A stretch of 64,000 nucleotides of DNA from Patescibacteria group bacterium (GCA_016860985.1 BOKM01000001.1:591462-655461), one strand, 5' to 3'. Positions 41,092-64,000 are shown, numbered from the stretch's first letter. Notes: generated by a model not told the origin, from the letters alone. Translations and numbers: made by a program.

Positions 41092-41107
41092 TATAAGAAA
41101 GGTAAGG

Positions 41108-43516
41108 ATGAACAAGTTATTAAAAGGTATGAGGGCGATGTCGTTAAGCTTCTTGGTGTTAATCGCTTCTTTTGGTGTTGTTCATGCTGCTAATTATGTA
41201 GAAACTACCTCCTATGACCTTGGGTATCCAGGGATTGATCTTGCCGAAGATTCGAGTGGAAACATCTTTATTGTAGATACAAATAATCAGAAAATTAAAA
41301 AATACGACCAAAACGGCAACTACTTATTACAATTTGGTGCCGAAGGAACAGGTAACGGGGAGTTCTCCTATGTTTCTAGTATGGCTATTGACTCTGCAGG
41401 TAATGTGTTTGTTGCAGACGAAGTTCGCGTTCAGAAGTTTTCAAATAATGGAGCCTTTCTCTCCGTATTTGCTAATACAGGTGAGGTAAAAGGAATGGCT
41501 ATTGATGCTGCTGACAATGTATATGTTTCGCTGCCTGTTGATTCGCAGATTGCAAAATACTCCTCTGCCGGTGCATTGCTTGGGTCTTTTGGAACTTTAG
41601 GTGACCAACCAGAAGAGTTTGATTCTCCAGGGAGCCTCACTATTGACGCAGCAGGGAATATTTATGTTGCAGATGAAGCCAATAAACGAATGCAGGTGTT
41701 CTCCTCGGGCTTTGAATACTTGTATGAGGTGACAGGTTTTGGCCCTGCAGAATCATGGTACATTATGCCTTTTGATATTGATGTAAGCCCATCTGGTGAA
41801 ACTTTTGTTGCTGATACCTACAATAATATTGTAAAGGTTTACGATAACACTGGATTGTTTTTGTCCAGTATTGATGTGCCGGGAAATCCGTACGGTATTA
41901 TTGCCAAAAGTAATGTGATTCTTGTAAGCGTTGCCGGAGATACAACGTTACGCAGGTTTACGTTGGATGATTTAGCGCCAACTATAAATGTAACACCGTT
42001 TGATAGTCATACGGTTGCGACAGGTCGACCCACTTTTGAAGGTTTGGCTGTCGATACCATGAGTCCGGTTACTTCAGTTGATTTCAAGGTAGAGGGTGGT
42101 GCGTATACAGGTGATTGGGCCAATTGTTCCCCTTCTGATGATTCGTACGATTCATTATCTGAAGCATTTACATGTATACCAGCCGACAGTATCCCCGTTG
42201 GGAGCTACACACTAACAGTACGGGCGACTGATAATGTTGCAAACACCAACCGTCAAGAAGACGATAATTTATTTACTTATACGTTTTCAATTATTGATGA
42301 TGCTCCTGCTAGTATAGATAACGAAGCGTTTCCGGAGGACAAAACGTTTGATACCACACCATTATTAACGGGAACAGTTGTTGATCTTGTTTCAGGAATT
42401 GTGAGTGTTGAGTACGAGTTAACCTCTGAAGCATCGGGAGTGTGGCACGCCTGTACCTCTGAAGATGGTGCATTTGATGAGCTTGCAGAAGTATATCAAT
42501 GTCAATTAGTTGATGCCTTAAGTGCAGGTATACATATAGTAACGATTCGTTCGACTGATGCTTCAGGTTTTACTAATGAACCATATCCTGATGGAAATGC
42601 GTGGGAATATACCTTTGAAGTAAGAGCGCTGACGACCCCAACTGTGGCAACAGGTACAGCGAGTTCAATTACTTCCAGCTCTGCAGTGATTGGCGGGACT
42701 GTTTCAAGCAATGGAGGGAGTGTTGTAACTGAGCGGGGTATTGTGTATTCAGCAACAGTAAGTACCCCTACGGTTTCTGATATAAAAGTAGCAAGTGGTA
42801 TGGGGGTAGGAGTATACACAGCGAGCCTAAGTAGTCTTGCTGCATCAACTCATTACTACGCGCGTTCATATGCAATAAACGCACAAGGAACATCGTACGG
42901 CTCCGTTCTCGAATTCACTACGCTTGCAGCTGCACCTACAACACCTGCCTCGCTACAGAATGTGTATGTCACGTTTGCAAAGTTTAAATATAATAAATAT
43001 GTATCTCCTTCTGCTCTTCGCACGGGGGATACGGCGTATATAAAGAATTTCAATACGAGTAAGTTGAAATTGTTACAGGTTTTTCTTTATGACTATGCAA
43101 AAAAAGGGAATCAAGGGTTTACCAAGTCAAAGGTGACAACATCGTCAATGTTTCTTAGAACAACTAGCCTTCTACCGACGGGTAAGCGCTACGCGTATGT
43201 CTTTAAATTCCAAGATAAAGCAACAGGGATCATCGCAACCAAATATTTTGTTGTATATACAACAAAAGTATGGCAGGGAAAGTCGGTTTTAGGAGTTACA
43301 ACGACAACGGAAACTGGAGTGCAGAATAAGCCGGGGCCTGACCCAAGTGAAGTTGCGCCGAATTATGTTGCCAATCCACTTCCACAGTATAGTGGAGATT
43401 GGAATAGAATATGGTCTAACGTTGTTGATTCAGGCGTGCTACCTTATATTGCTGTTGCTATTTGTATTGGAGGAGTTGTGATTGTCTTTCTAAGAAATAT
43501 AAAGCATGAATCCTGA
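41108..43516 (+). CDS. NHL-repeat (six-bladed beta-propeller) surface protein with Ig-like domains and C-terminal TM anchor
   Basis: Start at ATG 41108 with RBS-like AAGAAAGGTAAGG upstream; signal peptide 'MNKLLKGMRAMSLSFLVLIASFGVVHA'. Repeated 'GN.F.VAD..N.R.Q.F' NHL blades, e.g. 'SGNIFIVDTNNQKIKKYDQNG' and 'AGNVFVADEVRVQKFSNNG'. C-terminal 'VLPYIAVAICIGGVVIVFLRNIKHES'. Confidence 0.75.
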   Translation: MNKLLKGMRAMSLSFLVLIASFGVVHAANYVETTSYDLGYPGIDLAEDSSGNIFIVDTNNQKIKKYDQNGNYLLQFGAEGTGNGEFSYVSSMAIDSAGNVFVADEVRVQKFSNNGAFLSVFANTGEVKGMAIDAADNVYVSLPVDSQIAKYSSAGALLGSFGTLGDQPEEFDSPGSLTIDAAGNIYVADEANKRMQVFSSGFEYLYEVTGFGPAESWYIMPFDIDVSPSGETFVADTYNNIVKVYDNTGLFLSSIDVPGNPYGIIAKSNVILVSVAGDTTLRRFTLDDLAPTINVTPFDSHTVATGRPTFEGLAVDTMSPVTSVDFKVEGGAYTGDWANCSPSDDSYDSLSEAFTCIPADSIPVGSYTLTVRATDNVANTNRQEDDNLFTYTFSIIDDAPASIDNEAFPEDKTFDTTPLLTGTVVDLVSGIVSVEYELTSEASGVWHACTSEDGAFDELAEVYQCQLVDALSAGIHIVTIRSTDASGFTNEPYPDGNAWEYTFEVRALTTPTVATGTASSITSSSAVIGGTVSSNGGSVVTERGIVYSATVSTPTVSDIKVASGMGVGVYTASLSSLAASTHYYARSYAINAQGTSYGSVLEFTTLAAAPTTPASLQNVYVTFAKFKYNKYVSPSALRTGDTAYIKNFNTSKLKLLQVFLYDYAKKGNQGFTKSKVTTSSMFLRTTSLLPTGKRYAYVFKFQDKATGIIATKYFVVYTTKVWQGKSVLGVTTTTETGVQNKPGPDPSEVAPNYVANPLPQYSGDWNRIWSNVVDSGVLPYIAVAICIGGVVIVFLRNIKHES

Positions 43517-44146: not shown

Positions 44147-45698
<1,552 letters not shown>

Positions 45699-45739
45699 TA
45701 GGAGATGAGCGGTTTTCTCGCCACACCAGGATTGTTAAG

Positions 45740-45811
45740 GGGCATGTAGCTCAGTGGTAGAGCACTGTACTGATAATGCAGTGGTCCTTGGTTCGACCCC
45801 AAGCATGCCCA
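45740..45811 (+). tRNA. tRNA-Ile (anticodon GAT) in the 16S-23S spacer
   Basis: 'GGGCATGTAGCTCAGTGGTAGAGCACTGTACTGATAATGCAGTGGTCCTTGGTTCGACCCCAAGCATGCCCA' forms a cloverleaf. Confidence 0.9.
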
Positions 45812-45824
45812 TTTCTAGGGACCC

Positions 45825-45897
45825 GGGCCTGTAGCTCAGTTGGTAGAGCACTCGCTTTGCATGCGAGTTGTCAGGGGTTCGAATCCCCTCAGGTCCA
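45825..45897 (+). tRNA. tRNA-Ala (anticodon TGC) in the 16S-23S spacer
   Basis: 'GGGCCTGTAGCTCAGTTGGTAGAGCACTCGCTTTGCATGCGAGTTGTCAGGGGTTCGAATCCCCTCAGGTCCA' with the G3:U70 alanine identity pair. Confidence 0.9.
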
Positions 45898-46239
45898 AGA
45901 ATCTTTAAAAGGTTCTGAGTCTGAGGAAATGGAAAAATTGCATTATCATAATTAGTCAATGTCGGCTTCCAATATAAACGGAGCCAAAAAGCATTGCATA
46001 CACCTCGGTTCTTTGATAAAATCTGCTTACGCTCGTAAAGAAAGCAGAAGAGAGTGAAGGAATTATGGAGTTTTTCGCAAGGAAAATTCCCAGTTCTTTT
46101 ACTGAAAGGAGGTTCGCCTCTGATAAAGGATGTGCGTTGGTTTTCTTCGGAATTCTGACCTCTCTCATTTGCGCAAGCAAATGAGGGAAAACACATTTGA
46201 ACATTGACAATTGAATTAGGTTTTGTGACCGTACAAAAA

Positions 46240-49370
<3,131 letters not shown>

Positions 49371-49588
49371 TTGTTTGGTCACATACCTATTCAGTTGCTT
49401 TTACATTAGACTCTGTCTAGTACGAAAGCAACTGAAAACACGAATTTCAGACTTGTCTGTGTATAACTTGTTATACAACCTACTTGTAGGTAAAGGAGTG
49501 TTATTCAATTGTCAGTGTTTGCATTTTTCTGTAAACACTTTTCAACTCTATCTAATAAAAATAGACAATGCTCTGTTTTTTATATGCG

Positions 49589-50211: not shown

Positions 50212-50261
50212 TTTTTTGTCAGAAAGTTGAATTTATCGGTGTTTTGTTTTACTATGAAGAG

Positions 50262-51914
50262 ATGAATCGACGTGTCGTTGCCTTTCTAAAAAAATTACCC
50301 GGACTCGCAGTTATAGTTGTTGCAGGAACCATTTCATATTCGGTCGTCGCTGACTCTATCAATACACAAGTTACGGTTTCAAACTCGTCACCTACGTTTT
50401 CAGTCGCACCTGCAGAATCACCTGTGTCTGATACAACAACTCCAACCAACGTTGGAAATGTTGTCACGTTTCAGGCAACTGCCACCGATGCAAATAATGA
50501 TTCGTATCGGCTTGCAATCTGCAAAACAAATGCAGTAACCCCAAATGGTGTAGGTGCTCCCACATGTGATGGCGGAAGTTGGTGTGTTTCTTCTACAGCT
50601 GCCTCAGGTGCGCAAGCCTCCTGTACCTATACAGCTTTGTCAGGGGATGCCGAATCAAATGATTGGTTTGCTTTTGTTTGTGATTCAACAACCGGAAGTA
50701 CGTGTTCGTCGTCAAGCCAAGGGAGTGGGAGCGCAGGCTCTCCTTTTGCAGTTAATCACGCGCCTGCCTTTACTGCAATGAACTCTACCGCGGGGGATCC
50801 AGGAGCAACAATAACCTTCACCGCAACGGCCAGCGATGCTGATACAAGTGGAAGTGCAGATACCGTTCTCCTTGTTGTTTGTTCAGTATCTGGAGCAACT
50901 GCCAGTGGATGTACTATACCTGCAAATCAACTTTGTATTTCGACAGCGGTATCGAGCAATCCTACCTGTGATTACACCCTACCCGCGGTAAAAAATAGCG
51001 GTACAACGAGCTATTATTCCTATGTTTATGATAGTCACAATTTAGGGGCAACCAACAATCCTTTTCCTTCAAAATCCTACACAACTAATAATGTTTCGCC
51101 CTCAGTGTCAAATGTTGTCGTAAATGGTGCGGCAGACATTACGCTGACGGCAGGTACAACAACTAACGTTACGGTTACGGGCACAATTACCGATGCTAAC
51201 TCTTGTCAAAATATAAGTTCGGTGAAAACAAGCCTTTACCGTTCTGGAGTGGGCTATTCTGCGTGTGATACCGTTGGTGAGTTAAATTATAACTACTGTT
51301 ATTCACTCGTTACCTGTTCAGTTTCTGGAGGTTCCTGTACTGGTGGGACTGACGCATCTGCTGACTACTCTTGTACCGTAACGATGCAATATCATACAGA
51401 TCCAACCGATGTGTCGACTGTATATTCTGCCGAAAACTGGCTTGGAACGATTTTGGTAACCGATTCAGGTGCGTTAACTGCAACTGCTGAGTCGAGTACT
51501 CCCATAGAAGTTGCAAGTCTTACTGCACTCAGCCTTGACGCGCTTGTTTCCTATGGCAACATAGGCTTAGGGCAAGATTCTGGAGCGACTAATGCCACAA
51601 CAACCGTAACGGCACTTGGTAATGTCGGGATTGATACTGAATTGTCCGGTACATCAATGACAAATGGAACCGATACCATTCCTGTCGCCAACCAAAAATA
51701 TGGAACAACGGCTTTCACCTATTCGTCGGGGGGGACTGCGCTAAGCACAACACCCGTTGAAATCGAACTAAATGTGCTTAAGACAACGAGTGTGGGAACT
51801 CCGGCAACGAAGAGCCTGTATTGGGGTATTGCAATTCCAGGCAGTATAAGTTTTGGTACGTATACAGGGACAAATAACATCACAGCCATAAAAGGTGAAT
51901 CAAATGAATGGTAA
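50262..51914 (+). CDS. Cys-rich secreted surface protein sharing a C-terminal domain with the 1597-aa Gly-rich protein
   Basis: ATG 50262 preceded by GAAGAG, signal peptide 'MNRRVVAFLKKLPGLAVIVVAGTISYSVVA', many Cys pairs. The C-terminal half ('NVTVTGTITDANSCQNISSVKTSLYRSGVG ... SLYWGIAIPGSISFGTYTGTNNITAIK') parallels the C-terminus of the 52835-57604 product. Confidence 0.55.
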   Translation: MNRRVVAFLKKLPGLAVIVVAGTISYSVVADSINTQVTVSNSSPTFSVAPAESPVSDTTTPTNVGNVVTFQATATDANNDSYRLAICKTNAVTPNGVGAPTCDGGSWCVSSTAASGAQASCTYTALSGDAESNDWFAFVCDSTTGSTCSSSSQGSGSAGSPFAVNHAPAFTAMNSTAGDPGATITFTATASDADTSGSADTVLLVVCSVSGATASGCTIPANQLCISTAVSSNPTCDYTLPAVKNSGTTSYYSYVYDSHNLGATNNPFPSKSYTTNNVSPSVSNVVVNGAADITLTAGTTTNVTVTGTITDANSCQNISSVKTSLYRSGVGYSACDTVGELNYNYCYSLVTCSVSGGSCTGGTDASADYSCTVTMQYHTDPTDVSTVYSAENWLGTILVTDSGALTATAESSTPIEVASLTALSLDALVSYGNIGLGQDSGATNATTTVTALGNVGIDTELSGTSMTNGTDTIPVANQKYGTTAFTYSSGGTALSTTPVEIELNVLKTTSVGTPATKSLYWGIAIPGSISFGTYTGTNNITAIKGESNEW

Positions 51915-52851
51915 GATAAATCTTTATATTGCTGTCGCGTTATTCATCTTTTTTGCGGGGGTACAGCTGGTTTTCTTTCCTGATTATGCGCATGCTGCAT
52001 CATCAAGTATCGGAGTTTCCCCGTCACAGATTACGAACGATATTCTTACCCCTGGGGCAGAGTATGAAACAAAATTGACGATTTCACGTGCATCAGCAAC
52101 TATTGAAGTTGTTGCAAAGATTGAAATAAGTGGACAGGAAATCTCAAACTGGGTAACTTTTCCCGCTGGAGACAGTGTTGTAATCGCTAAGGGCGAACAA
52201 CGAAAAGAGATAACGGTCAAAATCAAGGTACCGCAAGACGCAGCCTACAGAAAATACGAAGGAAGTCTCCGTTTTACGGTAACACAGCAAACACAAGGGC
52301 AAGTTAACATTGTTCCAGGTGTTCGTGTTGATGTTAAACTCACGGTCACTGATAAAATAACGGAATCCATTAAGGTTTTGTACGTACAAGCCAAAGATTC
52401 TCCGTTTCTTGCACCATATCATGTGATGGTAAAAGTCAAGAATTTAGGAAACGCCGAAGCTTCACCTACAAAGCTAAACTTGGTAATCTTAGACATTAAT
52501 GAGAAGGAGCTGAGAACTTTATCCGCCCAGTTTAATGAAAAAGTAGCGGCGTTTAGTGAAAAAGATTATGATATTTACCTGCAAGATCCAACGCCACTTT
52601 CAATAGGAGAGTACTGGGCAAGAGTTACCGTATTTGGGGGAGAGAAAGAATTGTATTCAGATAAATTCTCCTTTAGAATTACGGAATCGACTCCATCAGT
52701 CAGTGTATCACCTTCAGTAGATAAAGGTTCAATTTTTGCAAGCAATATTTTGATGATTACCTTAGTTTTTGTGGGCATACTTACACTGGTTGGATCAATC
52801 GCGATAATCGTTGTATTTAGGCGCAAAAACAAAGATGAAGAAGGTACCTAA
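51895..52851 (+). CDS. bitopic membrane-anchored protein (N-terminal signal, C-terminal TM) in the surface-protein operon
   Basis: 'MNQMNGKINLYIAVALFIFFAGVQLVFFPDYAHA' signal and C-terminal 'ILMITLVFVGILTLVGSIAIIVVFRRKNKDEE'. Overlaps both neighbours, by 20 nt upstream and 17 nt downstream. Confidence 0.5.
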   Translation: MNQMNGKINLYIAVALFIFFAGVQLVFFPDYAHAASSSIGVSPSQITNDILTPGAEYETKLTISRASATIEVVAKIEISGQEISNWVTFPAGDSVVIAKGEQRKEITVKIKVPQDAAYRKYEGSLRFTVTQQTQGQVNIVPGVRVDVKLTVTDKITESIKVLYVQAKDSPFLAPYHVMVKVKNLGNAEASPTKLNLVILDINEKELRTLSAQFNEKVAAFSEKDYDIYLQDPTPLSIGEYWARVTVFGGEKELYSDKFSFRITESTPSVSVSPSVDKGSIFASNILMITLVFVGILTLVGSIAIIVVFRRKNKDEEGT

Positions 52852-55800
52852 ATGGCTTGCTGTTAGTTATTCCGTTGCCTCGATTGTGGTTTTTCTTGTT
52901 ATTTCTACATTTATTCATTTTTATCCCTCACCTCCTAAATCAAATGCATGGACAGAAACCTGCACGTGGACTGGAGCAACCGGTGGTGCATGGGAAACAA
53001 GTACCAACTGGGATTGCAATAGTGTTAATAGAGTACCAACTGCAACTGATCGCGTAGTTATAGATTCTAATGTAACAGTAAATATCAACGCCACCACAAC
53101 TATAGATGATTTGGTAATTGGAAACTCAGGAGGTACAACTTCACCGATTTTAAACTTTAATTATGATGCAATTACAAACGGAGCACTTATTGTTGATGAT
53201 TCAAATGCAGTTATTTATTCAAATGCACAAGTAACGCATACGTTGGGCGCAACAGCCGAGACAGCAAAGGTCAATATAACGGTGACGAATGGTGACATGA
53301 CGGTTACTGGGAGTATAAATGTAAACGAAAAAGGGTTTCGTCCTGGATATGGAACAGGAAAGGGGAATAATGGAAATGGTGCAGGTGGTGGCGCATATGG
53401 AGGAGGTGGTGGAAGTGGTGCAAGTGCAACTGGGGGAATTCCGTATGGCTCAGCAGCGCAACCTGTTAATTATGGAAGTGGTGGTGGAACAGATGGGACA
53501 GGGCTAAACAAAGGGGCGGGAGGTGCCGCAAAAATAACGATTGGAGGAACACTAACCGTTAATGGTTCTATTACTGCAACGGGGGGAATATCAATTACTG
53601 GAACTTCAGATGTAGGGAGTGGCGCTGGCGGCAGTATTTGGATTACTGCAACAACTATAACAGGTGCGGGCTCAATAACTGCAAACGGAGGCAATGGTGG
53701 AACAGGTGGTCAGTTAGCGGGTGCGGGCGGTGGTGGTCGTGTTGCCCTTTACTACACAACCGACAGTATGAGTGGAACAGTTTCCGCAAAATCAGGAGGA
53801 ACCACAAGTGGTACTTCAGTAATTGGAGCTGCTGGGACTATATATCGAGAAGTAAATGGAGGAATCAAAACAATTTTTATAGACAATGTTGGGCAGAATA
53901 ACAACGATACCTATTCTAAAATTGAAACAGGACTGACGCTCGATACGCTGACGGTCGCGAGTTACGGGTATTTATGGCTTGACGTAACACTCACCACTAC
54001 GACACTTACGTTAGAAAATAACACAAGGCTAACTGTTGATGCCGCTGCAAACTGTACATACACCACCTTTAATCTTGGTACGCCAACAACGATTATGGAT
54101 AGGGGTGGCACATTTGCATTACTTAGCGATGGTGGTTCACTTACTGTTGCTGCCTCAAACACACTGATTGCAGATTATCCTCGTACTTATACGAGTGTCA
54201 CGATAAACGGAACACTTACCACAAGTCAGAACTCAAGTGCCGAAACTTATAAGCTTTCTCACACTACATCAGGTGACTACACAATTTCTTCAACTGGTGT
54301 AATCAACGTTAGCGAGAAAGGTTACACGCCAGGTTACGGCCCAGGCAAGGGGGTTAACGGAAATGGAGCAGGCGGTGCAGGGCATGGCGGAGGGGGCGGA
54401 AGAGGAACTAGTGCAGTTGGTGGGACAACATACGGCTCTACAACGCAACCAAATAATATAGGGAGTGGTGGCGGTACTGATGGTCTAGGGCTAAACAAAG
54501 GTGGAGGAGGGGCGGTTAAATTGGACGTTGGGGGTACGTTAACAATAAACGGTAGTATTACAGCAAATGGTGGAGCATCACTAACAGGAACAAGCGATGT
54601 TGGTGGCGGAAGTGGCGGAAGCATATGGCTTATTGCATCTACATTATCTGGTTCTGGAGCTCTTTCTGCAAATGGAGGAAATGGGGGGCCTTCAGGGCAA
54701 AACTCAGGTGCAGGTGGTGGTGGGAGAATTGCTATCTATTACACAACTGACACCTCGACGCTGACAGTGTCTGCAAAGAGTGGAACAACTGGTGGAGGAA
54801 CATGGGTTATTGGTGCTGCAGGTACAATCTACAAAGAGTCTACAGGTGGCACAAAGAGTGTGACTATAGATAATGGAAATTTAGAGAACAACGATAATTA
54901 CGCAACAATTCAATCTGGTTTAAACCTTACCACCTTGACCGTAACGAATAAGGGATCGTTATGGGCAGATAATTCAACTACAGCAACGACAGTTAATCTA
55001 ACTAACTCAGGAAAACTTGCAATAGCGTCAACTGGTAGTATCTCTTATACAAACCTAAACTGGTCAACATCTGGAATTTTAATAGATAGAGGAGGGACGT
55101 TCTCATTACTAAGTGGAGGAGCTGTACTTACTGTTCCGACAAGTACAGTGCTTTTTGCTGATACTGCAAGAACATACACGTCTGTTACTGTTGATGGAAC
55201 AGTGACGCATACAGCAAATGGTACAGCTGAAACGTATAAAACTAATCATACAACATCAGGTGACTACACAATATCGGCAACTGGATCGATTGACGTAACG
55301 GGAAAGGGGTTTGCAGGTGGGTACGGTACGGGCAAGGGAACCAACGGTAACGGTGCTGGTGGCGCTGGATATGGTGGAGAAGGTGGAAACGATGCATATG
55401 CAAATATCGCTGGAGGAACAACATATGGTTCGCTCACAAATCCACTCGATTCCGGGAGTGGTGGCGGAATTAACGAAGGTGCACAAAATTATGGAGGAGG
55501 AGTTGTGAAATTATCGATTGGGGGAACGTTGACAGTCGATGGCCCGATTTACTCTAACGGACAAGCAAATCAAGGCGGTGGGACTGACGATGTTGGTGGC
55601 GGGTCCGGCGGGTCCATCAACATTACGGCGTCAACACTTGCTGGAAATTCAACAGTCGCCGCTAATGGTACGAATGCGTATAGGTATGGAGGAGCAGGCG
55701 GTGGGGGAAGAATTGCAGTGTACTATACAAACAACACTTCTTCGATTTCCTATCAGGCATACGGAGGAACTCAGGGTGGTTCGGGGGGGAACATCGGCGC

Positions 55801-57604
55801 AGCAGGAACAATTTACCAAAAACCAGATTCTAGCAACGGAACTGTTATTGTGAACAATGGAAATCGCAATGCCGGGGCAAAAAAAACAGCGAGCTTACCA
55901 GCTAGCCTTTCCATAGCAACGCTTGATATTCTAAATTACGGGAGGTTGCACTTTACGACATCGATTACGGCAACAACAATTAATCTCTCTGCAAACGCTA
56001 CATTAGTGAATGAGGCAACGGGGACAACCGCAAATACGGAATTTAACTGGACCGGGCCTTCAATTTTATATGACAGAGGTGGTACTTTTGGGACTTTAAG
56101 TGGTGGTGGTGCGTTAAATGTTCCCACAAATACAACGCTTTATGCTGACGTGGCAAGAAGTTACAGTTCAGTAACAGTCGATGGTACTATCACTCACTCA
56201 AGCAATACGACTGCTGAGACTTATAAAATTGCGTATACCGTTACAAACAACGTGACAGTAGCCGCAGGAGGTAAAATTGATGTATCAAGCCGCGGGTATG
56301 CTTCTTCAGAAGGTACAGGGCAAGGAGTTGATCATGCTTCGGGTTCAGGTGGTGGAGGTTATGGAGGGAACGGAGGCGCAGGGCTTTCAGGTGCAGGTGG
56401 TTCATCCTATGGTTCTGCTACAGCACCTGCAAATATTGGTTCTGGAGGTGGAGCAGATGGTGCAGGAAATGGAGGGCTCGGTGGTGGAAATGTCACAATC
56501 AATGCAGGAGGAACAGTAACCATTACGGGCAGTATTCTTGCTGATGGTGGGAGTTACGTTGCAAACGACTCAGGAGGTGGAGCAGGTGGTACGATTAGTA
56601 TTAACGCCGGTACCTTTACTGGAGCTGGAACTGTGTATGCACGTGGAGGAGCTGGAAGACCCGGTACTGGAGGTGGTGGTAGCGGCGGAAGAATTGCCAT
56701 TTTTTACGCTGGTTGGGGCTGGACTGGCAATACAATGACTGATGCAGTAGCCACAAGCGGCGGAAGTGGTTATGCTACTGGTTCGGTTGGAACTGTTTAC
56801 CTAGAATCATCAAATAACTTACCTTCAGTTTCCGGTGTTGCCATAAATTCAGGGGCTGCTGCAATTGACTTAACCGCTGGGAGTTCCTTAAATGTGAGTT
56901 GTACGGGAACAGTATCAGACCTTGATGGATATTTGGATATTACCTCAGTAACGGCGGTGCTTTATCGATCAGGAGTTGGGGCTGGTGCAGCAGATAACGA
57001 CAACAATCACTATTCAAGTACCTGTTCGGGAGGAGCCGGAAGCGGGACAACGCAACCATTTACCTGTACGTTCCCCGTGTGGTTTATTGCAGATCCTACG
57101 GACGTTGGTTCAAATAATGCAGCGGACGACTGGACCTGTAAAATAACTCCATATGATGGCGATGGCACTGGAAGCGATGGAACCGATACCATTGAAATGA
57201 ACTCACTATCTGCAATATCTGTTACTCCAAGTAGTATTGATTTTAATGGAGCACTCTCCGCAGGGGGAAACTCAGGGAGTAATAACGATACGACTGAATT
57301 TTATAATATTGGCAATGTGGCCATAGACGTTGAGGTTTCTGGATCAAACTTGTGTACAGATTATCCAACTTGCGCAACTAATGTAATTAGTACGGGGAAT
57401 ATTGAGTATAAGGATACGGCGTTCACATATGGAGCAGGGATCGACCTCACAAACTCTCCTGTATTTAATGGGTACAACATTGCTAAATCGACGGTTCGAC
57501 CTTCAAACCAGTCAAGAACAACCTATTGGGGAATTGGGATACCATTATCTGTTACCTCTGGAACATATACTGGGGTTGCGACTTTTACGGCGTTACAGCA
57601 CTAA
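52835..57604 (+). CDS. giant glycine-rich repeat protein (1590 aa), predicted beta-helical surface fibre
   Basis: ATG 52835 with signal anchor 'MKKVPKWLAVSYSVASIVVFLVISTFIHF'. Four copies of an approximately 330-aa unit beginning 'TAETYK' with 'EKGFxPGYGTGKGxNGNGAGG.GYGG.GG', 'GSGGGTDG.GLNKG.GGA.K' and 'GGSGGSIW.TA.T..G.G...ANGGNGG' up to 'GAGGGGR.A.YYT'. C-terminal domain shared with the 50262-51914 product. Confidence 0.7.
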   Translation: MKKVPKWLAVSYSVASIVVFLVISTFIHFYPSPPKSNAWTETCTWTGATGGAWETSTNWDCNSVNRVPTATDRVVIDSNVTVNINATTTIDDLVIGNSGGTTSPILNFNYDAITNGALIVDDSNAVIYSNAQVTHTLGATAETAKVNITVTNGDMTVTGSINVNEKGFRPGYGTGKGNNGNGAGGGAYGGGGGSGASATGGIPYGSAAQPVNYGSGGGTDGTGLNKGAGGAAKITIGGTLTVNGSITATGGISITGTSDVGSGAGGSIWITATTITGAGSITANGGNGGTGGQLAGAGGGGRVALYYTTDSMSGTVSAKSGGTTSGTSVIGAAGTIYREVNGGIKTIFIDNVGQNNNDTYSKIETGLTLDTLTVASYGYLWLDVTLTTTTLTLENNTRLTVDAAANCTYTTFNLGTPTTIMDRGGTFALLSDGGSLTVAASNTLIADYPRTYTSVTINGTLTTSQNSSAETYKLSHTTSGDYTISSTGVINVSEKGYTPGYGPGKGVNGNGAGGAGHGGGGGRGTSAVGGTTYGSTTQPNNIGSGGGTDGLGLNKGGGGAVKLDVGGTLTINGSITANGGASLTGTSDVGGGSGGSIWLIASTLSGSGALSANGGNGGPSGQNSGAGGGGRIAIYYTTDTSTLTVSAKSGTTGGGTWVIGAAGTIYKESTGGTKSVTIDNGNLENNDNYATIQSGLNLTTLTVTNKGSLWADNSTTATTVNLTNSGKLAIASTGSISYTNLNWSTSGILIDRGGTFSLLSGGAVLTVPTSTVLFADTARTYTSVTVDGTVTHTANGTAETYKTNHTTSGDYTISATGSIDVTGKGFAGGYGTGKGTNGNGAGGAGYGGEGGNDAYANIAGGTTYGSLTNPLDSGSGGGINEGAQNYGGGVVKLSIGGTLTVDGPIYSNGQANQGGGTDDVGGGSGGSINITASTLAGNSTVAANGTNAYRYGGAGGGGRIAVYYTNNTSSISYQAYGGTQGGSGGNIGAAGTIYQKPDSSNGTVIVNNGNRNAGAKKTASLPASLSIATLDILNYGRLHFTTSITATTINLSANATLVNEATGTTANTEFNWTGPSILYDRGGTFGTLSGGGALNVPTNTTLYADVARSYSSVTVDGTITHSSNTTAETYKIAYTVTNNVTVAAGGKIDVSSRGYASSEGTGQGVDHASGSGGGGYGGNGGAGLSGAGGSSYGSATAPANIGSGGGADGAGNGGLGGGNVTINAGGTVTITGSILADGGSYVANDSGGGAGGTISINAGTFTGAGTVYARGGAGRPGTGGGGSGGRIAIFYAGWGWTGNTMTDAVATSGGSGYATGSVGTVYLESSNNLPSVSGVAINSGAAAIDLTAGSSLNVSCTGTVSDLDGYLDITSVTAVLYRSGVGAGAADNDNNHYSSTCSGGAGSGTTQPFTCTFPVWFIADPTDVGSNNAADDWTCKITPYDGDGTGSDGTDTIEMNSLSAISVTPSSIDFNGALSAGGNSGSNNDTTEFYNIGNVAIDVEVSGSNLCTDYPTCATNVISTGNIEYKDTAFTYGAGIDLTNSPVFNGYNIAKSTVRPSNQSRTTYWGIGIPLSVTSGTYTGVATFTALQH

Positions 57605-59511
57605 AGTTTTTCTCCTCCGATTCTCCAGTAGCAAATGCCTTTAATGCCGTAGTTTTGGGCAAGCTTGAGCCTATTATCTATTGCCTGCTTGTTAAGATAA
57701 TACATTACCCGTTCAACTCCGTTATACTTAAACTCTGCTCGCACTTCTTTTATCGTGCTGTCATAGGTTTCTCGATAATACGTGCTGTGGTTCTTTATGT
57801 ATGCAATATTGTCATGTTGCGGAGATATGGTGTTTTTTTGTTCGCCCGAAGAAAGTGACTGGTCGTTATTAGTTCCAGCTAGGTTTTTACTCTTTGGCTT
57901 CGGCCATCCATGTGCATACAAAGGGAGTGCAAGTACCACTTTTTCTGCGGGCATTTGGCTTAATGCGTAGCGTATCAATGTTTCGTTCCATCCGTAGGGA
58001 GAGAGAGGTCCAGGCTGTTTACTACCTTGCCCAGTAAAATCATAGGCCATGATTCTGAACTCATCTACGATTGCGCCGATTGCTTTCCAGTCCTGAGCCT
58101 CATGTGTTTGTGGGAGAAATGAGTAAATTTTTCGGTCATCAATTTTTGGGAGTGCGGTGAATACAAGCTTTTTGTTGTTTTTGTGAAGTTCATCGGCAAG
58201 TTTTGACAGAAATTGGAGGAGCTCGTCTTTATCGGAAGCATAGGTACTTTCATAGTCAAGGTCAATTCCATCGTAGCCGTTTTTGGTCACAACACTCACT
58301 ATTTCCTTGATATGCGCGTCCATGTGTTTGTTTAGTATACTGCTGAGAATGTCAGCGTCGAAGAGTGAAATTGTGGGAATTAACGTTATGTTGTTGCGCT
58401 GTACAAGATCAAGCAACACTCTGTTGTTAAGCGTCGGCTCAACATTTAAAGAACCGTTGGCTTTTGGTGTAAACCAAACAGGAGAGAGTGTACGGTACTT
58501 CTTTGGATTAGCTCTTATTGAGGTGAGTGCTGGTGTCATTCCCCAATCGGGAATCCATGACATTTCTTCCGGAATATTCGGGGAACCGTTATACGAGACA
58601 GCGTTTTCAGTGGGTAAGTCGGAGTTAAACTGGACTCTAGATTCAAAGAAGGTACTAAATATAGTGCTACCGATCTTTGGCCAAATCCTAAGTATCAATG
58701 TCAGTTGCTGTGAAGCTAAGGGAACTGTAGGTTGAAAATAGTCGCCTTTTTGGGATGTTGCAAGTTTTCCAGTGGCGAAAATTCTTGCTCCTTTCTCGTC
58801 AAGTACCTCTATGCTGTAGGCAGCTTGTGACAACAATGAGTTATCTAGTAGTGTTGAAGAACTCCAATCAAAAACAAATGTTCCGTAGGGATTTGAAACG
58901 GAGGGTAATGCTACTCCATAATAAGCCAAGAACGGGTTGAGAGCATTGTAGTAATAATCGCCGTGAGTAGTCGCTATAAGATAATCACTCTGGCATTTTT
59001 GATTTTTGATATCACAGCTAGTCTTGAAGATTTCTCGAGATTTTATGTCTCCGTTACATGTATATAATAATCCATCTGGGGTGTGTATTGATAATTCGCT
59101 GGCAGACTCAGAGTTTACTGCTTGCTCGAATATTTCACATAAATTGTCTGTGAGCTTGTCTTGGCGCGAGGTGACTTCTAGGGCAGGATACTTTTTTTGT
59201 ATGGAGAGTAAATAGTCTTCCGAAGGGGAGTCTAATAGCAGTGTGGTTATTCCTGTTGATAGCAATATCACTTCCTCAGTATTATTCGGCCAGTAGTTGT
59301 TGGGTAGGATAATTGCCTTTTTGATACTATCCTTGTTTTGCGCATTAGGAGTAGGAGTAACTATCCCGTTTTGTGATACAGGAATACTCCCTATTTGTTC
59401 GATTTGTTTTAGTTTGCCGTGCCAAAGTTTTAAATCTCCATAAACTCCGAGTGATAGCACGATCGCAAACAATAGCAGAATGCTGAAAATCTGAGCTCTT
59501 TGAGTGTTCAT
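57601..59511 (-). CDS. glycoside hydrolase family 18 (chitinase-like) secreted/anchored enzyme
   Basis: N-terminal signal anchor 'MNTQRAQIFSILLLFAIVLSLGVYG'. GH18 catalytic motif 'YDGIDLDYE' (DxxDxDxE) with surrounding TIM-barrel pattern. Confidence 0.75.
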   Translation of the reverse strand: MNTQRAQIFSILLLFAIVLSLGVYGDLKLWHGKLKQIEQIGSIPVSQNGIVTPTPNAQNKDSIKKAIILPNNYWPNNTEEVILLSTGITTLLLDSPSEDYLLSIQKKYPALEVTSRQDKLTDNLCEIFEQAVNSESASELSIHTPDGLLYTCNGDIKSREIFKTSCDIKNQKCQSDYLIATTHGDYYYNALNPFLAYYGVALPSVSNPYGTFVFDWSSSTLLDNSLLSQAAYSIEVLDEKGARIFATGKLATSQKGDYFQPTVPLASQQLTLILRIWPKIGSTIFSTFFESRVQFNSDLPTENAVSYNGSPNIPEEMSWIPDWGMTPALTSIRANPKKYRTLSPVWFTPKANGSLNVEPTLNNRVLLDLVQRNNITLIPTISLFDADILSSILNKHMDAHIKEIVSVVTKNGYDGIDLDYESTYASDKDELLQFLSKLADELHKNNKKLVFTALPKIDDRKIYSFLPQTHEAQDWKAIGAIVDEFRIMAYDFTGQGSKQPGPLSPYGWNETLIRYALSQMPAEKVVLALPLYAHGWPKPKSKNLAGTNNDQSLSSGEQKNTISPQHDNIAYIKNHSTYYRETYDSTIKEVRAEFKYNGVERVMYYLNKQAIDNRLKLAQNYGIKGICYWRIGGEKL

Positions 59512-59543: not shown

Positions 59544-59572
59544 TTGCCAACACGTTTTTGGCGTGTTATAAT
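59544..59572 (+). promoter_or_regulatory. sigma70-like promoter for the unlinked 5S rRNA (TTGCCA-17-TATAAT)
   Basis: -35 TTGCCA 59544-59549, -10 TATAAT 59567-59572, 5 nt before the 5S 5' end. Confidence 0.5.
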
Positions 59573-59577
59573 TCTTT

Positions 59578-59693
59578 GCTTGGTGACTAGAGCGGAGTGG
59601 CACCACCCGATCCCTTTCCGAACTCGGAAGTGAAACACTCCAGCGCCGAAGATACTTGGATATTTCTCCTGGGAAAATAGGTCGTTGCCAAGC
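59578..59693 (+). rRNA. rrf: 5S rRNA, unlinked from the 16S-23S operon
   Basis: 'GCTTGGTGACTAGAGCGGAGTGGCACCACCCGATCCCTTTCCGAACTCGGAAGTGAAACACTCCAGCGCCGAAGATACTTGGATATTTCTCCTGGGAAAATAGGTCGTTGCCAAGC'. The conserved 'CCGAACTCGGAAGTGAAAC' loop C/helix III is present, helix I pairs the termini, and a T9 run follows. Confidence 0.8.
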
Positions 59694-63545: not shown

Positions 63546-64000
63546 ATGTGGGAGAAAAGGGCATCAGTTATGAATGTGCTCGGAACGGTATACACAGTTT
63601 CTTTGAGCTTTTTTGTTGTACTCTCAATGATGTTCGTTACGCTTGCCAAACAATTGCAAGAGCCGCAATACACAGAGGCAGCAGCTTGTTCTCTTCCAGC
63701 AACAATTACAACAACAATTGAATTAACACCTGAAAGCTCAGACAATATAATTGATTGTTCGGGGCAAGATATCACAGTTACTTCAACCGGAAAATTAATC
63801 ATTAAAAGTTATACTGCTGCAGATTCAAGCACCTCAAATGATGTTGGTGTTGTGCTAAAAGTTGCCAATCTTACCATCGATGCAGGTGGAGAGGTTTCTG
63901 CAGATGGCCAAGGATATATTCCAAGTGCGGTTGATGGTGGAAGCGCTGTCGCATCGACAGGAGTGGCTGCAGGTTCTGGTGGTGGTCATGGTGGTGCAGG
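63546..64000 (+). CDS. glycine-rich repeat protein, partial (3' truncated by window edge); paralogue of the 1597-aa protein
   Basis: ORF open to the window end. 'MWEKRASVMNVLGTVYTVSLSFFVVLSMMFVTLA' signal anchor, then 'TSTGKLIIKS ... DAGGEVSADGQGYIPSAVDGGSAVASTGVAAGSGGGHGGAG' has the same motif as 'EKGF.PGYGTGKG..GNGAGGG.YGGGGG' in the 52835-57604 product. Confidence 0.5.
   Translation, partial: MWEKRASVMNVLGTVYTVSLSFFVVLSMMFVTLAKQLQEPQYTEAAACSLPATITTTIELTPESSDNIIDCSGQDITVTSTGKLIIKSYTAADSSTSNDVGVVLKVANLTIDAGGEVSADGQGYIPSAVDGGSAVASTGVAAGSGGGHGGA

What the first reader, a model, noticed from the sequence alone, without database searches (positions are those of the whole stretch)
52835..57604. 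1590-aa glycine-rich protein built from four copies of an approximately 330-aa unit, with a second paralogue beginning at the window edge
The units begin at nt about 53250, 54243, 55230 and 56211. Each carries 'EKGF.PGYGTGKG.NGNGAGG.GYGGGGG', 'YGS...P.N.GSGGGTDG.GLNKG.GGA.K...GGTLT.NG.I.A.GG', 'GGSGGSIW..A.T..G.G...ANGGNGG' and 'GAGGGGR.A.YYT'. The low complexity, Gly/Asn/Thr-rich periodic pattern and the flanking 'T.T..N.T' strands suggest a parallel beta-helix or beta-solenoid, as in autotransporter passengers and some phage fibres. I do not recognise it as a named family. A paralogue with the same 'GQGY...GSGGGHGGAG' signature begins at 63546 and runs off the window. This is a multigene family of fibre-like surface proteins.
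Basis: seen in the sequence. Interest (0 to 1): 0.6.

Follow-up and report, generated by a model that had tools for sequence, protein, structure and literature searches.

The report
Giant glycine-rich beta-solenoid surface protein
This is a real 1589-residue secreted protein of a Patescibacteria (CPR) bacterium, built from four copies of a glycine-rich beta-solenoid module that is very common in metagenomes but has no Pfam or NCBIfam model, and it ends in a domain shared with its neighbouring genes, which suggests how these tiny bacteria mount long fibres on their surface.

Summary
The fourth copy keeps only the ~200-aa Gly-rich part.

AlphaFold2 folds one unit with high confidence (pLDDT 93.9, pTM 0.93). 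It is an ordered beta-solenoid, not a disordered region: 33-36-residue coils in the Gly-rich part, 18-21-residue coils in the Thr/Asn-rich part. No PDB structure matches significantly; the best weak hits are all beta-helices.

No Pfam, NCBIfam or PHROG model matches the module. A profile nevertheless finds 14,126 protein clusters, in proteins up to 7134 aa with up to 13 copies, in Patescibacteria, Verrucomicrobiota and Planctomycetota.

The ORF at the window edge is a true paralogue: its 88%-identical orthologue is 3980 aa with 7 modules.

One part is new. The last 269 aa form two beta-sandwiches, also found in the upstream 556-aa gene and in stand-alone ~310-aa proteins. In six independent loci these genes sit beside a p318-like membrane-anchored protein. 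This layout mirrors the WxL surface clusters of Firmicutes, but homology is unproven.

Best reading: a wall-attached surface fibre or adhesin. It is not an autotransporter or a phage fibre.

The parts
52835..57604 (+). Gene for the 1589-aa Gly/Thr/Ser/Asn-rich protein (p1589). Its start overlaps the end of the upstream gene by 17 nt.
   Evidence: collinear orthologues P0001-P0005 at 56-97% identity
52835..52948 (+). N-terminal signal peptide or signal anchor: MKKVPK, then a hydrophobic stretch at aa 8-28, then a possible cleavage site SNA|W.
   Evidence: Kyte-Doolittle 19-residue mean up to 2.23. Cleavage is inferred, not shown.
52949..53251 (+). N-terminal cap (aa 39-139). It is Thr/Asn-rich and beta-strand-like, and ends in '...VTHTLGATAETAK', like the end of each unit's spacer.
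   Evidence: sequence read directly; weak Amnionless-like hit, E 0.21
53252..54238 (+). Unit 1 (aa 140-468): Gly-rich wide solenoid segment of ~195 aa, followed by a Thr/Asn-rich narrow segment of ~135 aa.
54239..55225 (+). Unit 2 (aa 469-797); this is the unit that was modelled.
   Evidence: (pLDDT 93.9, pTM 0.93)
55226..56209 (+). Unit 3 (aa 798-1125).
56210..56794 (+). Fourth Gly-rich module only (aa 1126-1320); it has no spacer segment.
56795..57601 (+). C-terminal domain (CTD, aa 1321-1589): two tandem beta-sandwiches with near-invariant Trp residues (W113 and the 'YWG[IL]xxP' motif at W245).
50244..51914 (+). Upstream gene p556 (probable start at the ATG at 50262). It has a signal peptide and Ig-like repeats, and its last ~260 aa (aa 295-550) are the same CTD at 38% identity to p1589.
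   Evidence: L001 orthologue of 550 aa
51895..52851 (+). p318 (probable start at 51904): signal peptide, beta-sandwich-sized ectodomain, C-terminal transmembrane helix and basic tail. It is the conserved partner of CTD genes.
63546..64000 (+). Start of the paralogue, which runs off the window. It has an N-terminal hydrophobic segment and the first module begins near aa 107.
   Evidence: orthologue P0270: 3980 aa, 7 modules

Best explanation
p1589 is an exported cell-surface fibre protein of a Patescibacteria bacterium. After export through its N-terminal signal sequence, about 1280 residues fold into a beta-solenoid. Four wide, glycine-rich segments have coils of 33-36 residues: a long strand, a short strand and a ~19-residue Gly-rich arc. 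These alternate with narrow Thr/Asn-rich segments whose coils are 18-21 residues. By inference this gives a stiff rod roughly 15-20 nm long. The C-terminal 269 residues form two beta-sandwich domains (the CTD). The CTD is the common module of a conserved three-part cassette: a large CTD-bearing protein, small proteins that are only signal peptide plus CTD, and a membrane-anchored two-domain partner (p318). By analogy with the WxL/WxLIP clusters of Firmicutes, I propose that the CTD holds the protein non-covalently at the cell wall together with p318, and that the solenoid projects outward as a spacer or adhesin towards a host cell or substrate. Shown here: the repeat anatomy, the confident ordered fold, the family size, the paralogue, the shared CTD, and the gene-order conservation. 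Inferred: signal-peptide cleavage, rod continuity between units, the CTD-p318 interaction, wall binding, and the adhesive role.
For: Repeats and conservation: 15 invariant positions, mostly Gly plus R163 and P71; units are mostly positionally orthologous across species, so the duplication is old. Ordered solenoid: pLDDT 93.9, pTM 0.93; coil lengths of 36, 35, 33, 32, 18 and 21 residues. The weak PDB neighbours are all beta-helices, including tapirins, autotransporters and ice-binding proteins. Extracellular context: the hydrophobic N-terminus, and relatives carrying FN3, Calx-beta, Laminin_G_3, Ig, PA14-type and CarboxypepD_reg domains with no enzymatic domain. CTD: two beta-sandwiches at pLDDT 91.7, with generic Ig-like PDB hits. 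The CTD also occurs in p556, in P0040, and in 37 mostly ~300-aa stand-alone proteins. Cassette: a CTD gene or genes plus a p318-like gene lie adjacent in the window/L001, L002, L003, L005, L006 and L007. In the window the three genes overlap by 17-20 nt, consistent with one operon. WxL analogy: the published cluster definition is large WxL + small WxL + WxLIP, where WxLIP is a signal peptide, two Ig-like domains and a TM helix, 320-380 aa in all (PMC9772566, PMC10599100). Two of 16 p318-family members hit Pfam WxLIP_HBD below threshold, in the domain just before the TM helix (E 2.4e-4 and 3.6e-3). Epibiotic Patescibacteria need several adhesins (PMC10633639).
Against: There is no functional or localisation data. 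Homology of the cassette to WxL clusters is not established: 23 CTD sequences gave no PF13731 (WxL) hit even at E<=10, there was no PF06030 hit, the PF11797 hits are below the gathering score and occur in only 2 of 16 members, and NCBIfam gave nothing. The window cassette has no small CTD-only gene; p556 takes that position. The 21-residue hydrophobic N-terminus could be an uncleaved anchor, which would reverse the proposed polarity. Packing between units was not modelled. pTM of 0.69 for module 4 plus CTD shows that the junction is not rigidly defined.
Confidence: 0.6

Rival explanations
1. It is a structural envelope or S-layer-type component, with the beta-solenoid acting as a lattice or stalk element, rather than an adhesin that contacts another cell.
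For: S-layers are reported in Patescibacteria and Verrucomicrobiota, and beta-helix S-layer proteins are common (bioRxiv 10.1101/2024.05.28.596244). The cassette has small abundant-looking CTD-only subunits in other loci. The module occurs mainly in the same phyla.
Against: The exact protein has orthologues only in a few close relatives. The N-terminal parts of CTD proteins vary freely between lineages, which is more typical of ligand-binding passengers than of lattice formers. No symmetry or oligomer evidence was obtainable.
Confidence: 0.15
2. The CTD is a polymerising (pilin-like, donor-strand) module and p318 is an anchor or chaperone. On this view p1589 is the tip subunit of a new non-sortase fibre of monoderm CPR bacteria.
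For: The small, large and anchored gene trio resembles pilus operons. Foldseek hits include the CFA/I pilin CfaB and the CfaE-chaperone complex (E 2-3e-4). A conserved beta-strand motif follows the signal peptide of small CTD proteins and p556 (read from the sequences).
Against: The pilin hits sit among many equally good generic Ig-like hits such as Vps26, integrins and RbmA. Both CTD sandwiches are predicted complete in the monomer at high pLDDT. No multimer test was possible.
Confidence: 0.12
3. The solenoid is an enzyme scaffold, such as a polysaccharide lyase or hydrolase like pectate lyases and tailspikes, or an ice- or mineral-binding surface.
For: Weak Foldseek neighbours include pectinase-like proteins, a PL6 lyase and ice-binding proteins. 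The spacer strands are Thr/Asn-rich. A GH18 gene lies next door on the other strand.
Against: All those hits have E>1 and TM<0.2. The invariant positions are almost all Gly, with no conserved acidic or catalytic constellation. No enzyme family matched.
Confidence: 0.06
4. It is a low-complexity, intrinsically disordered Gly-rich region, or an autotransporter passenger, PE-PGRS protein or phage fibre in disguise.
Against: The fold is confident and ordered and the Gly columns are position-specific and invariant. There is no Pfam hit to Pertactin, Autotransporter, PE, HemolysinCabind, Chlamydia_PMP or Gly_rich models. No phage match was found. The C-terminus is two beta-sandwiches, not a barrel.
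Confidence: 0.02

Closest known systems
WxL surface-protein clusters of Firmicutes (large WxL protein + small WxL protein + WxLIP = DUF916-DUF3324-TM helix; Csc clusters of Lactiplantibacillus, Listeria and Enterococcus)
   Same: The cassette logic is the same. Several secreted proteins share one C-terminal domain: some are only signal peptide plus domain, and one is large with variable N-terminal domains. Next to them lies a ~300-340-aa protein with a signal peptide, two Ig-like-sized domains and a C-terminal TM helix (PMC9772566, PMC10599100). The CTD has two conserved Trp motifs, the second being W-G-[I/L]. There are sub-threshold WxLIP_HBD hits in 2 of 16 p318 relatives.
   Different: No WxL (PF13731) or DUF916 (PF06030) match was found. 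The CTD is ~260 aa and forms two sandwiches, whereas the WxL domain is 160-190 aa. No LPxTG gene is present. The phylum is Patescibacteria, whereas >91% of known WxL proteins are in Firmicutes. The passenger here is a giant Gly-rich solenoid.
Tapirins of Caldicellulosiruptor (beta-helix adhesins of a monoderm; PDB 6n2b, 4wa0, 6n2c)
   Same: Tapirins are the best, though weak, structural neighbours of the unit. Both are extracellular beta-helix adhesin domains in bacteria without an outer membrane.
   Different: The match is E 6.9e-3, TM 0.28 and 8% identity, so the fold class is shared at most. Tapirins are not tandem-modular and have no Gly-rich arcs.
Autotransporter passenger beta-helices (pertactin, Hbp, TibA, Ag43, IcsA) and chlamydial Pmp GGA(I/L/V)/FxxN solenoids
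   Same: Both are long Gly/Thr/Asn-rich beta-solenoid stalks on a cell surface, and the 'GGxI/V' strand starts are similar (PMC11166332).
   Different: There is no beta-barrel translocator and no Pfam match. The coils in the Gly-rich part are 33-36 residues long. The host lineage lacks an outer membrane (established knowledge of Patescibacteria).
Giant RTX adhesins (MpIBP, LapA, FrhA) and RTX beta-rolls
   Same: Both are very large repetitive surface proteins with Gly-rich turns, ordered extender regions and terminal binding domains.
   Different: There is no GGxGxDxUx nonapeptide, no HemolysinCabind hit and no T1SS-type C-terminal signal. The periodicity differs.
Ordered glycine-rich domains built from polyglycine-II helices (ALK/LTK glycine-rich domain, phage S16 gp38, snow-flea antifreeze). 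This comparison is recalled from memory and is only a lead.
   Same: Segments with 43% Gly are predicted ordered at pLDDT >90 without DSSP helix or strand, for example residues 24-91 of the unit.
   Different: There is no Pfam Gly_rich hit and no PDB profile hit to ALK or LTK. The conformation of the arcs could not be inspected because no coordinates were available.

Membership tests
Autotransporter (type Va) passenger | C-terminal 12-stranded beta-barrel translocator (Pfam Autotransporter PF03797) and a diderm host | tested here: not met
   No Pfam hit at E<=1. The C-terminus is modelled as two beta-sandwiches. Relatives are named Patescibacteria.
Autotransporter (type Va) passenger | Pertactin-like or PATR passenger repeats (PF03212, PF12951/TIGR02601) | tested here: not met
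   No Pfam or NCBIfam hit for the protein or for 47 units.
PE-PGRS (Mycobacterium) | N-terminal PE domain followed by GGA/GGN repeats | tested here: not met
   No PE domain hit. The repeats are 330-aa structured units, not short GGX tandems.
RTX beta-roll | Tandem GGxGxDxUx nonapeptides (PF00353) | tested here: not met
   No hit. Coil lengths are 33-36 and 18-21 residues.
Phage tail fibre / tailspike | Sequence relatives in phage genomes or PHROG families | tested here: not met
   No PHROG hit. tblastn against 50,697 phage records gave no match. BFVD gave only partial weak matches, best E 6e-4 with TM 0.23.
ALK/LTK-type glycine-rich domain (PF12810 and relatives) | Match to the Gly_rich models or to solved ALK/LTK chains | tested here: not met
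   No Pfam hit. The profile search of PDB sequences found nothing relevant at E<=10.
Beta-solenoid / parallel beta-helix fold class | Stacked coils of short parallel strands with regular spacing, predicted with confidence | tested here: met
   AF2 gives pLDDT 93.9 and pTM 0.93, with strand pairs recurring every 18-36 residues. All weak structural neighbours are beta-helices.
Beta-solenoid / parallel beta-helix fold class | Right-handed three-sided pectate-lyase-like geometry (PbH1, PF13229) | not testable with these tools
WxL cluster (Firmicutes) | Gene cluster with at least one WxLIP-type protein (signal peptide, two Ig-like domains, TM helix) and at least two proteins sharing one C-terminal domain | tested here: met
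   The architecture is met in the window (p556, p318, p1589) and in five further loci. The definition is taken from PMC10599100.
WxL cluster (Firmicutes) | The shared domain is the WxL domain (PF13731; 160-190 aa with two W-x-L motifs) | tested here: not met
   None of 23 CTD sequences hit PF13731 at E<=10. The CTD is ~260 aa. It has two near-invariant Trp residues, but only the second fits W-x-[L/I].
WxL cluster (Firmicutes) | The partner matches DUF916 (PF06030) and DUF3324 (PF11797) | tested here: inconclusive
   There is no PF06030 hit. PF11797 was hit by 2 of 16 members at E 2.4e-4 and 3.6e-3 (17.7 bits against a cut-off of 28.9), in the expected position.
Uncurated 'Gly-rich solenoid module' family (defined here by alignment A1) | ~200-aa core with the motifs KG[FY]..G.G.G, YGS...P...GSGGG, GGG[SA]GGS[IV] and GGGGR[IV]A.YY, repeated in tandem | tested here: met
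   All four copies in p1589 match at E<=1e-123. 14,126 clusters match the profile at E<=1e-3 and 5,057 at E<=1e-30.

The most novel reading that the evidence does not exclude
Patescibacteria have their own WxL-like or pilus-like display system, distantly related to or convergent with the Firmicutes one. In it, a two-sandwich C-terminal domain plus a membrane-anchored partner (p318) mounts interchangeable giant passengers on the wall. The passenger here belongs to a previously undescribed beta-solenoid class whose wide coils are closed by ordered glycine-rich arcs. This would make the cassette a general handle for finding the host-contact proteins of uncultured CPR bacteria.
Probability: 0.25. 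Interest if true: 0.75.

Novelty: new variant of a known kind. Interest (0 to 1): 0.52.

Why it matters
Three points matter.

1. The ~200-aa Gly-rich module is a large piece of protein 'dark matter'. More than 14,000 clusters at 50% identity contain it, in proteins up to 7,000 aa, yet it matches no model in the Pfam, NCBIfam or PHROG copies searched and has no solved relative. It folds with high confidence into an ordered solenoid, so it is a good candidate for a new curated family and for structure determination.

2. Most Patescibacteria are thought to live attached to other cells, and how they make contact is largely unknown beyond type IV pili. Giant surface fibres are obvious candidates for this role.

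3. The shared C-terminal domain and its conserved membrane-anchored neighbour give a concrete, testable model for how such proteins are held on a wall that has no sortase signal or outer membrane. They also give a search handle (CTD plus p318) for cataloguing the variable passengers across the phylum.

Tried and rejected
- Pfam, NCBIfam and PHROG scans of the whole protein, its neighbours and 47 individual units gave no family for the module.
- Profile searches of PDB sequences with the unit, the module-4-plus-CTD alignment and the p318 alignment found only noise or TM helices.
- Foldseek against the PDB with the unit model found nothing at E<=1e-3. BFVD gave weak partial matches to uncharacterised phage and giant-virus Gly-rich proteins.
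- tblastn of a unit against GenBank phages gave no match. tblastn of a p318 relative against plasmids gave no match.
- The search for related loci with alignment A1 failed because the alignment has no conserved 7-10-column stretch. With the whole protein it returned only one CTD locus, so the source genome is not among the GTDB representatives.
- hhalign of the p318 family against the CTD shows they are unrelated, with probability 0.8%. p318 is therefore not a divergent CTD.
- The 4135-aa ORF and the 815-aa NHL protein in the window are not members of the module family.
- Promoter and terminator scans around the cassette were not above shuffled expectation.
- The first attempt at the second alignment (A2) misplaced the signal peptides of the small proteins. 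It was discarded and rebuilt as A3.
Full report

The + strand is open from 52835 (ATG; an in-frame TTG lies at 52811) to the stop at 57602-57604, giving 1589 residues. The composition is 19.8% Gly, 14.8% Thr, 10% Ser and 7.9% Asn.

An HMM built from these units places them at aa 140-468, 469-797, 797-1126 and 1126-1452. Domain E-values run from 6e-152 to 1e-123. The quoted motifs are present.

Two corrections are needed:
- The fourth copy shares only the first ~200 residues.
- The repeat is old and visible only at protein level. Gly-rich cores are 46-68% identical within the protein. Each unit is usually closer to the same-numbered unit of an orthologue than to its neighbours (for example, unit 4 is 68-69% identical across species against 46-48% within the protein). 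Tandem Repeats Finder finds nothing in the DNA.

The gene is real. Collinear orthologues of 1586-1597 aa at 56-97% identity have the same four units.

**2. Where the window comes from**

The window carries a 16S-tRNA-tRNA-23S operon (44147-49375) and housekeeping genes such as YidC, RnpA, YbaB and RecR. Named relatives of the proteins studied here come from Patescibacteria, including Paceibacterota, Falkowbacteria and Dojkabacteria. The source genome itself is not among the GTDB representative genomes.

**3. What a unit is**

I collected 47 units from the window and from Patescibacteria homologues (alignment A1). There are 15 invariant positions: 13 Gly, plus Pro71 and Arg163 in the GGGGR[IV]A motif.

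AlphaFold2 on unit 2 with this alignment gives mean pLDDT 93.9 and pTM 0.93, with all five models at or above 92.5. The finding's own refutation criterion, intrinsic disorder, is therefore not met.

The DSSP string shows strand pairs recurring regularly:
- In residues 92-227 the coils are 36, 35, 33 and 32 residues long. Each has a 9-12-residue strand, a 3-residue strand and a ~19-residue Gly-rich arc.
- Residues 228-330 have shorter coils of 18-21 residues, rich in Thr and Asn.
- Residues 24-91 are 43% Gly. They are predicted ordered (pLDDT ~95) but are neither helix nor strand.

A unit is therefore a wide Gly-rich solenoid segment followed by a narrow Thr/Asn-rich one. The N-terminal region (aa 39-139) ends like a spacer ('VTHTLGATAETAK'). 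The overall plan is signal sequence, cap, (Gly module + spacer) x3, Gly module, then C-terminal domain.

With about ten coils per unit and the usual 4.8 Å rise per coil (textbook value), the solenoid part would be roughly 15-20 nm long. This length, and the continuity between units, are inferences, because only one unit was modelled.

**4. Is the unit a known fold or family?**

- Foldseek against 350,542 PDB chains gives no hit at E<=1e-3. The best is a tapirin C-terminal beta-helix (6n2b, E 6.9e-3, TM 0.28, 8% identity). The rest of the list (E>0.1) is made of other beta-helices: autotransporter passengers, ice-binding proteins, LpxA-type proteins and pectinase-like proteins.
- BFVD gives only partial weak matches to uncharacterised phage, prasinovirus and pandoravirus Gly-rich proteins.
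- By sequence there is no Pfam, NCBIfam or PHROG match for the protein, and no Pfam match for any of the 47 units scanned singly at E<=10 beyond noise.
- There is no PDB sequence relative and no tblastn match in 50,697 phage records.

Yet the family is very large. The A1 profile finds 14,126 cluster representatives at E<=1e-3, 9,692 at 1e-10 and 5,057 at 1e-30 among 1.84 billion. These proteins reach 7134 aa and carry up to 13 copies.

Among the 120 best word-index hits, two architectures stand out:
- Patescibacteria proteins have 3-6 copies with a 300-360-aa period, usually ending with a spacer-less module as here.
- Verrucomicrobiota and Planctomycetota proteins have 6-9 copies with a ~260-aa period; only the ~210-aa Gly-rich core is shared.

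NCBI calls these proteins 'hypothetical' or 'beta strand repeat-containing protein'. Accompanying Pfam domains are FN3, Calx-beta, Laminin_G_3, Ig, and CarboxypepD_reg. All are extracellular and none is enzymatic.

**5. The paralogue**

The 151 codons at 63546-64000 match the module start only weakly on their own (E 0.05 in a 7-sequence search). A contig carrying the 83%-identical orthologue of p1589 has the same gene order, and there the corresponding gene is 3980 aa. The first 1379 aa of that gene contain three modules at E 1e-35 to 5e-38. The full protein (P0270) is 88% identical to the window fragment and has 7 modules.

The 4135-aa ORF at 28684-41091 is not a member. A genome-wide paralogue count was not possible.

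**6. The C-terminal domain and its neighbours**

Residues 1340-1588 of p1589 are 38% identical to residues 295-550 of the upstream 556-aa protein (E 8e-23).

A database search with the last 269 aa finds 37 proteins, all unnamed or from Patescibacteria. Most are ~300-340 aa, that is, a signal peptide plus this domain only.

AF2 on module 4 plus the CTD gives pLDDT 91.7 and pTM 0.69. The CTD is two seven-stranded beta-sandwiches. PDB neighbours are generic tandem Ig-like pairs at 7-13% identity: Vps26/arrestin, integrin alpha legs, RbmA, the CfaB pilin and transglutaminase barrels.

I looked up five unrelated contigs carrying small CTD proteins. In every case the order is the same: a large CTD-bearing protein (973-1735 aa, with unrelated N-terminal parts), one to three small CTD proteins, and then a homologue of the window's 318-aa gene. 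The p318 family HMM scores E 4e-73 to 5e-87 on three of these neighbours (L005-L007), and BLASTP of p318 itself gives 8e-26 and 1e-27 on the other two (L002, L003).

In the window the order is p556 (CTD), p318, p1589 (CTD), with 17-20-nt overlaps between the genes.

p318 and its relatives have a signal peptide, about 250 residues of beta-sandwich-like sequence (weak NEW3, LapA and LacZ_4 hits), a C-terminal TM helix and a basic tail. They are not related to the CTD (hhalign probability 0.8%).

**7. Comparison with WxL clusters**

The layout is that of the WxL clusters of Firmicutes, as defined in PMC9772566 and PMC10599100:
- a small WxL protein (signal peptide plus domain);
- a large WxL protein (N-terminal host-binding domains plus a C-terminal WxL domain);
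- WxLIP (signal peptide, DUF916, DUF3324 and a TM helix; 320-380 aa).

There, the shared domain binds peptidoglycan non-covalently and WxLIP is proposed to stabilise it.

Testing for membership gave the following:
- The architecture criterion is met.
- The WxL domain criterion is not met. No PF13731 hit was found in 23 CTD sequences at E<=10, and the CTD is larger and two-domain. It does have two near-invariant Trp residues, the second in 'YWG[I/L]xxP'.
- The WxLIP criterion is inconclusive. Two of 16 p318-family members hit PF11797 below threshold, at the expected position (E 2.4e-4 and 3.6e-3). There were no PF06030 hits, and NCBIfam was uninformative.

I therefore use the WxL system as the working analogy for mechanism, not as a family assignment.

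**8. Mechanism proposed**

The steps and their basis are:
1. Export through the N-terminal signal-like segment (aa 1-38). The hydrophobic stretch is shown; cleavage at SNA|W is inferred.
2. Folding into the modular solenoid (predicted with high confidence for one unit).
3. Retention at the wall through the CTD, together with membrane-anchored p318. This is inferred from gene-order conservation and the WxL analogy.
4. The solenoid projects outward as a spacer or adhesin. This is inferred from the family's domain partners and from the epibiotic lifestyle of cultivated Patescibacteria, which need multiple adhesins (PMC10633639).

Rival readings are an S-layer or structural role, a polymerising pilus-like CTD, and an enzymatic or ice-binding solenoid. 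They are listed with their evidence in the rival-explanations section. The disorder, autotransporter, PE-PGRS and phage-fibre readings are rejected.

**9. Verdict**

The thing itself, a beta-solenoid surface protein, is a known kind. The module is an uncurated, very large family with an unusual Gly-rich wide-coil design and no solved relative. The CTD/p318 cassette is, as far as the libraries and papers searched here show, undescribed in Patescibacteria.

I rate it a new variant of a known kind, with interest about 0.5.

Noticed in passing
window 59579-59693 (+), with 59544-59572: The 5S rRNA gene is unlinked from the 16S-23S operon (44147-49375). It lies about 10.2 kb downstream, behind five protein-coding genes on both strands. 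It has its own strong sigma-70-like site directly upstream (TTGCCA-17-TATAAT, 11 of 12 matches, with TG).
   Followed up: partly
window 46234-49375 (+): The 23S rRNA match spans 3142 nt for a 2925-position model. About 200 nt of extra sequence (insertions or an intervening sequence) must therefore be present. A 23S_rRNA_IVP gene was seen in the related locus L003.
   Followed up: no
window 28684-41091 (+) and 41069-43516 (+): A 4135-aa ORF has a signal-like N-terminus and no Pfam hit at all. It is not related to the Gly-rich module family. It is followed, with an overlap, by an 815-aa NHL-repeat/Big_13 protein. This is another giant surface-protein candidate just upstream of the rRNA operon.
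   Followed up: partly
L002 9879-12972; L003 11722-15864; L005 7034-10939: In three other Patescibacteria loci the CTD/p318 cassette continues with genes that carry dockerin-like and cohesin-like sequences. Pfam Dockerin_1 (weak) and Cohesin hits occur in L005. Some of these genes also have C-terminal TM helices. This hints at a larger surface-assembly locus. These genes are absent from the window (tblastn).
   Followed up: partly
window 50244-51125 (+), N-terminal half of p556: Before its CTD, p556 appears to contain two further copies of the first CTD sandwich, with the pattern 'N..P......(I/V)TF.ATA.DA(D/N)'. It may therefore be a chain of related Ig-like domains. The likely true start is the ATG at 50262, because the orthologue is 550 aa.
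   Followed up: no
window 57601-59511 (-): A 636-aa protein with an N-terminal membrane segment and a C-terminal GH18 (chitinase-like) domain (E 3e-25) converges on p1589; the two stop codons overlap. The pairing is conserved in L001. A role in wall or host-wall glycan processing is possible but was not examined.
   Followed up: no
P0005 (orthologue) units 1-3: In the 56%-identical orthologue P0005, unit 1 is most similar to the window's unit 3 (62%), and unit 3 is most similar to the window's unit 2 (62%). Some unit shuffling or replacement has therefore occurred, although the overall count of four is conserved.
   Followed up: partly
window 52835-53251; aa 39-70 of p1589: The mature N-terminus carries a 'W.G....W....NW......P...D.V.I' pattern with a weak Amnionless-like Pfam hit (E 0.21). 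As I recall, this resembles the N-terminal caps of many Planctomycetota and Verrucomicrobiota beta-helix proteins. This was not tested.
   Followed up: no
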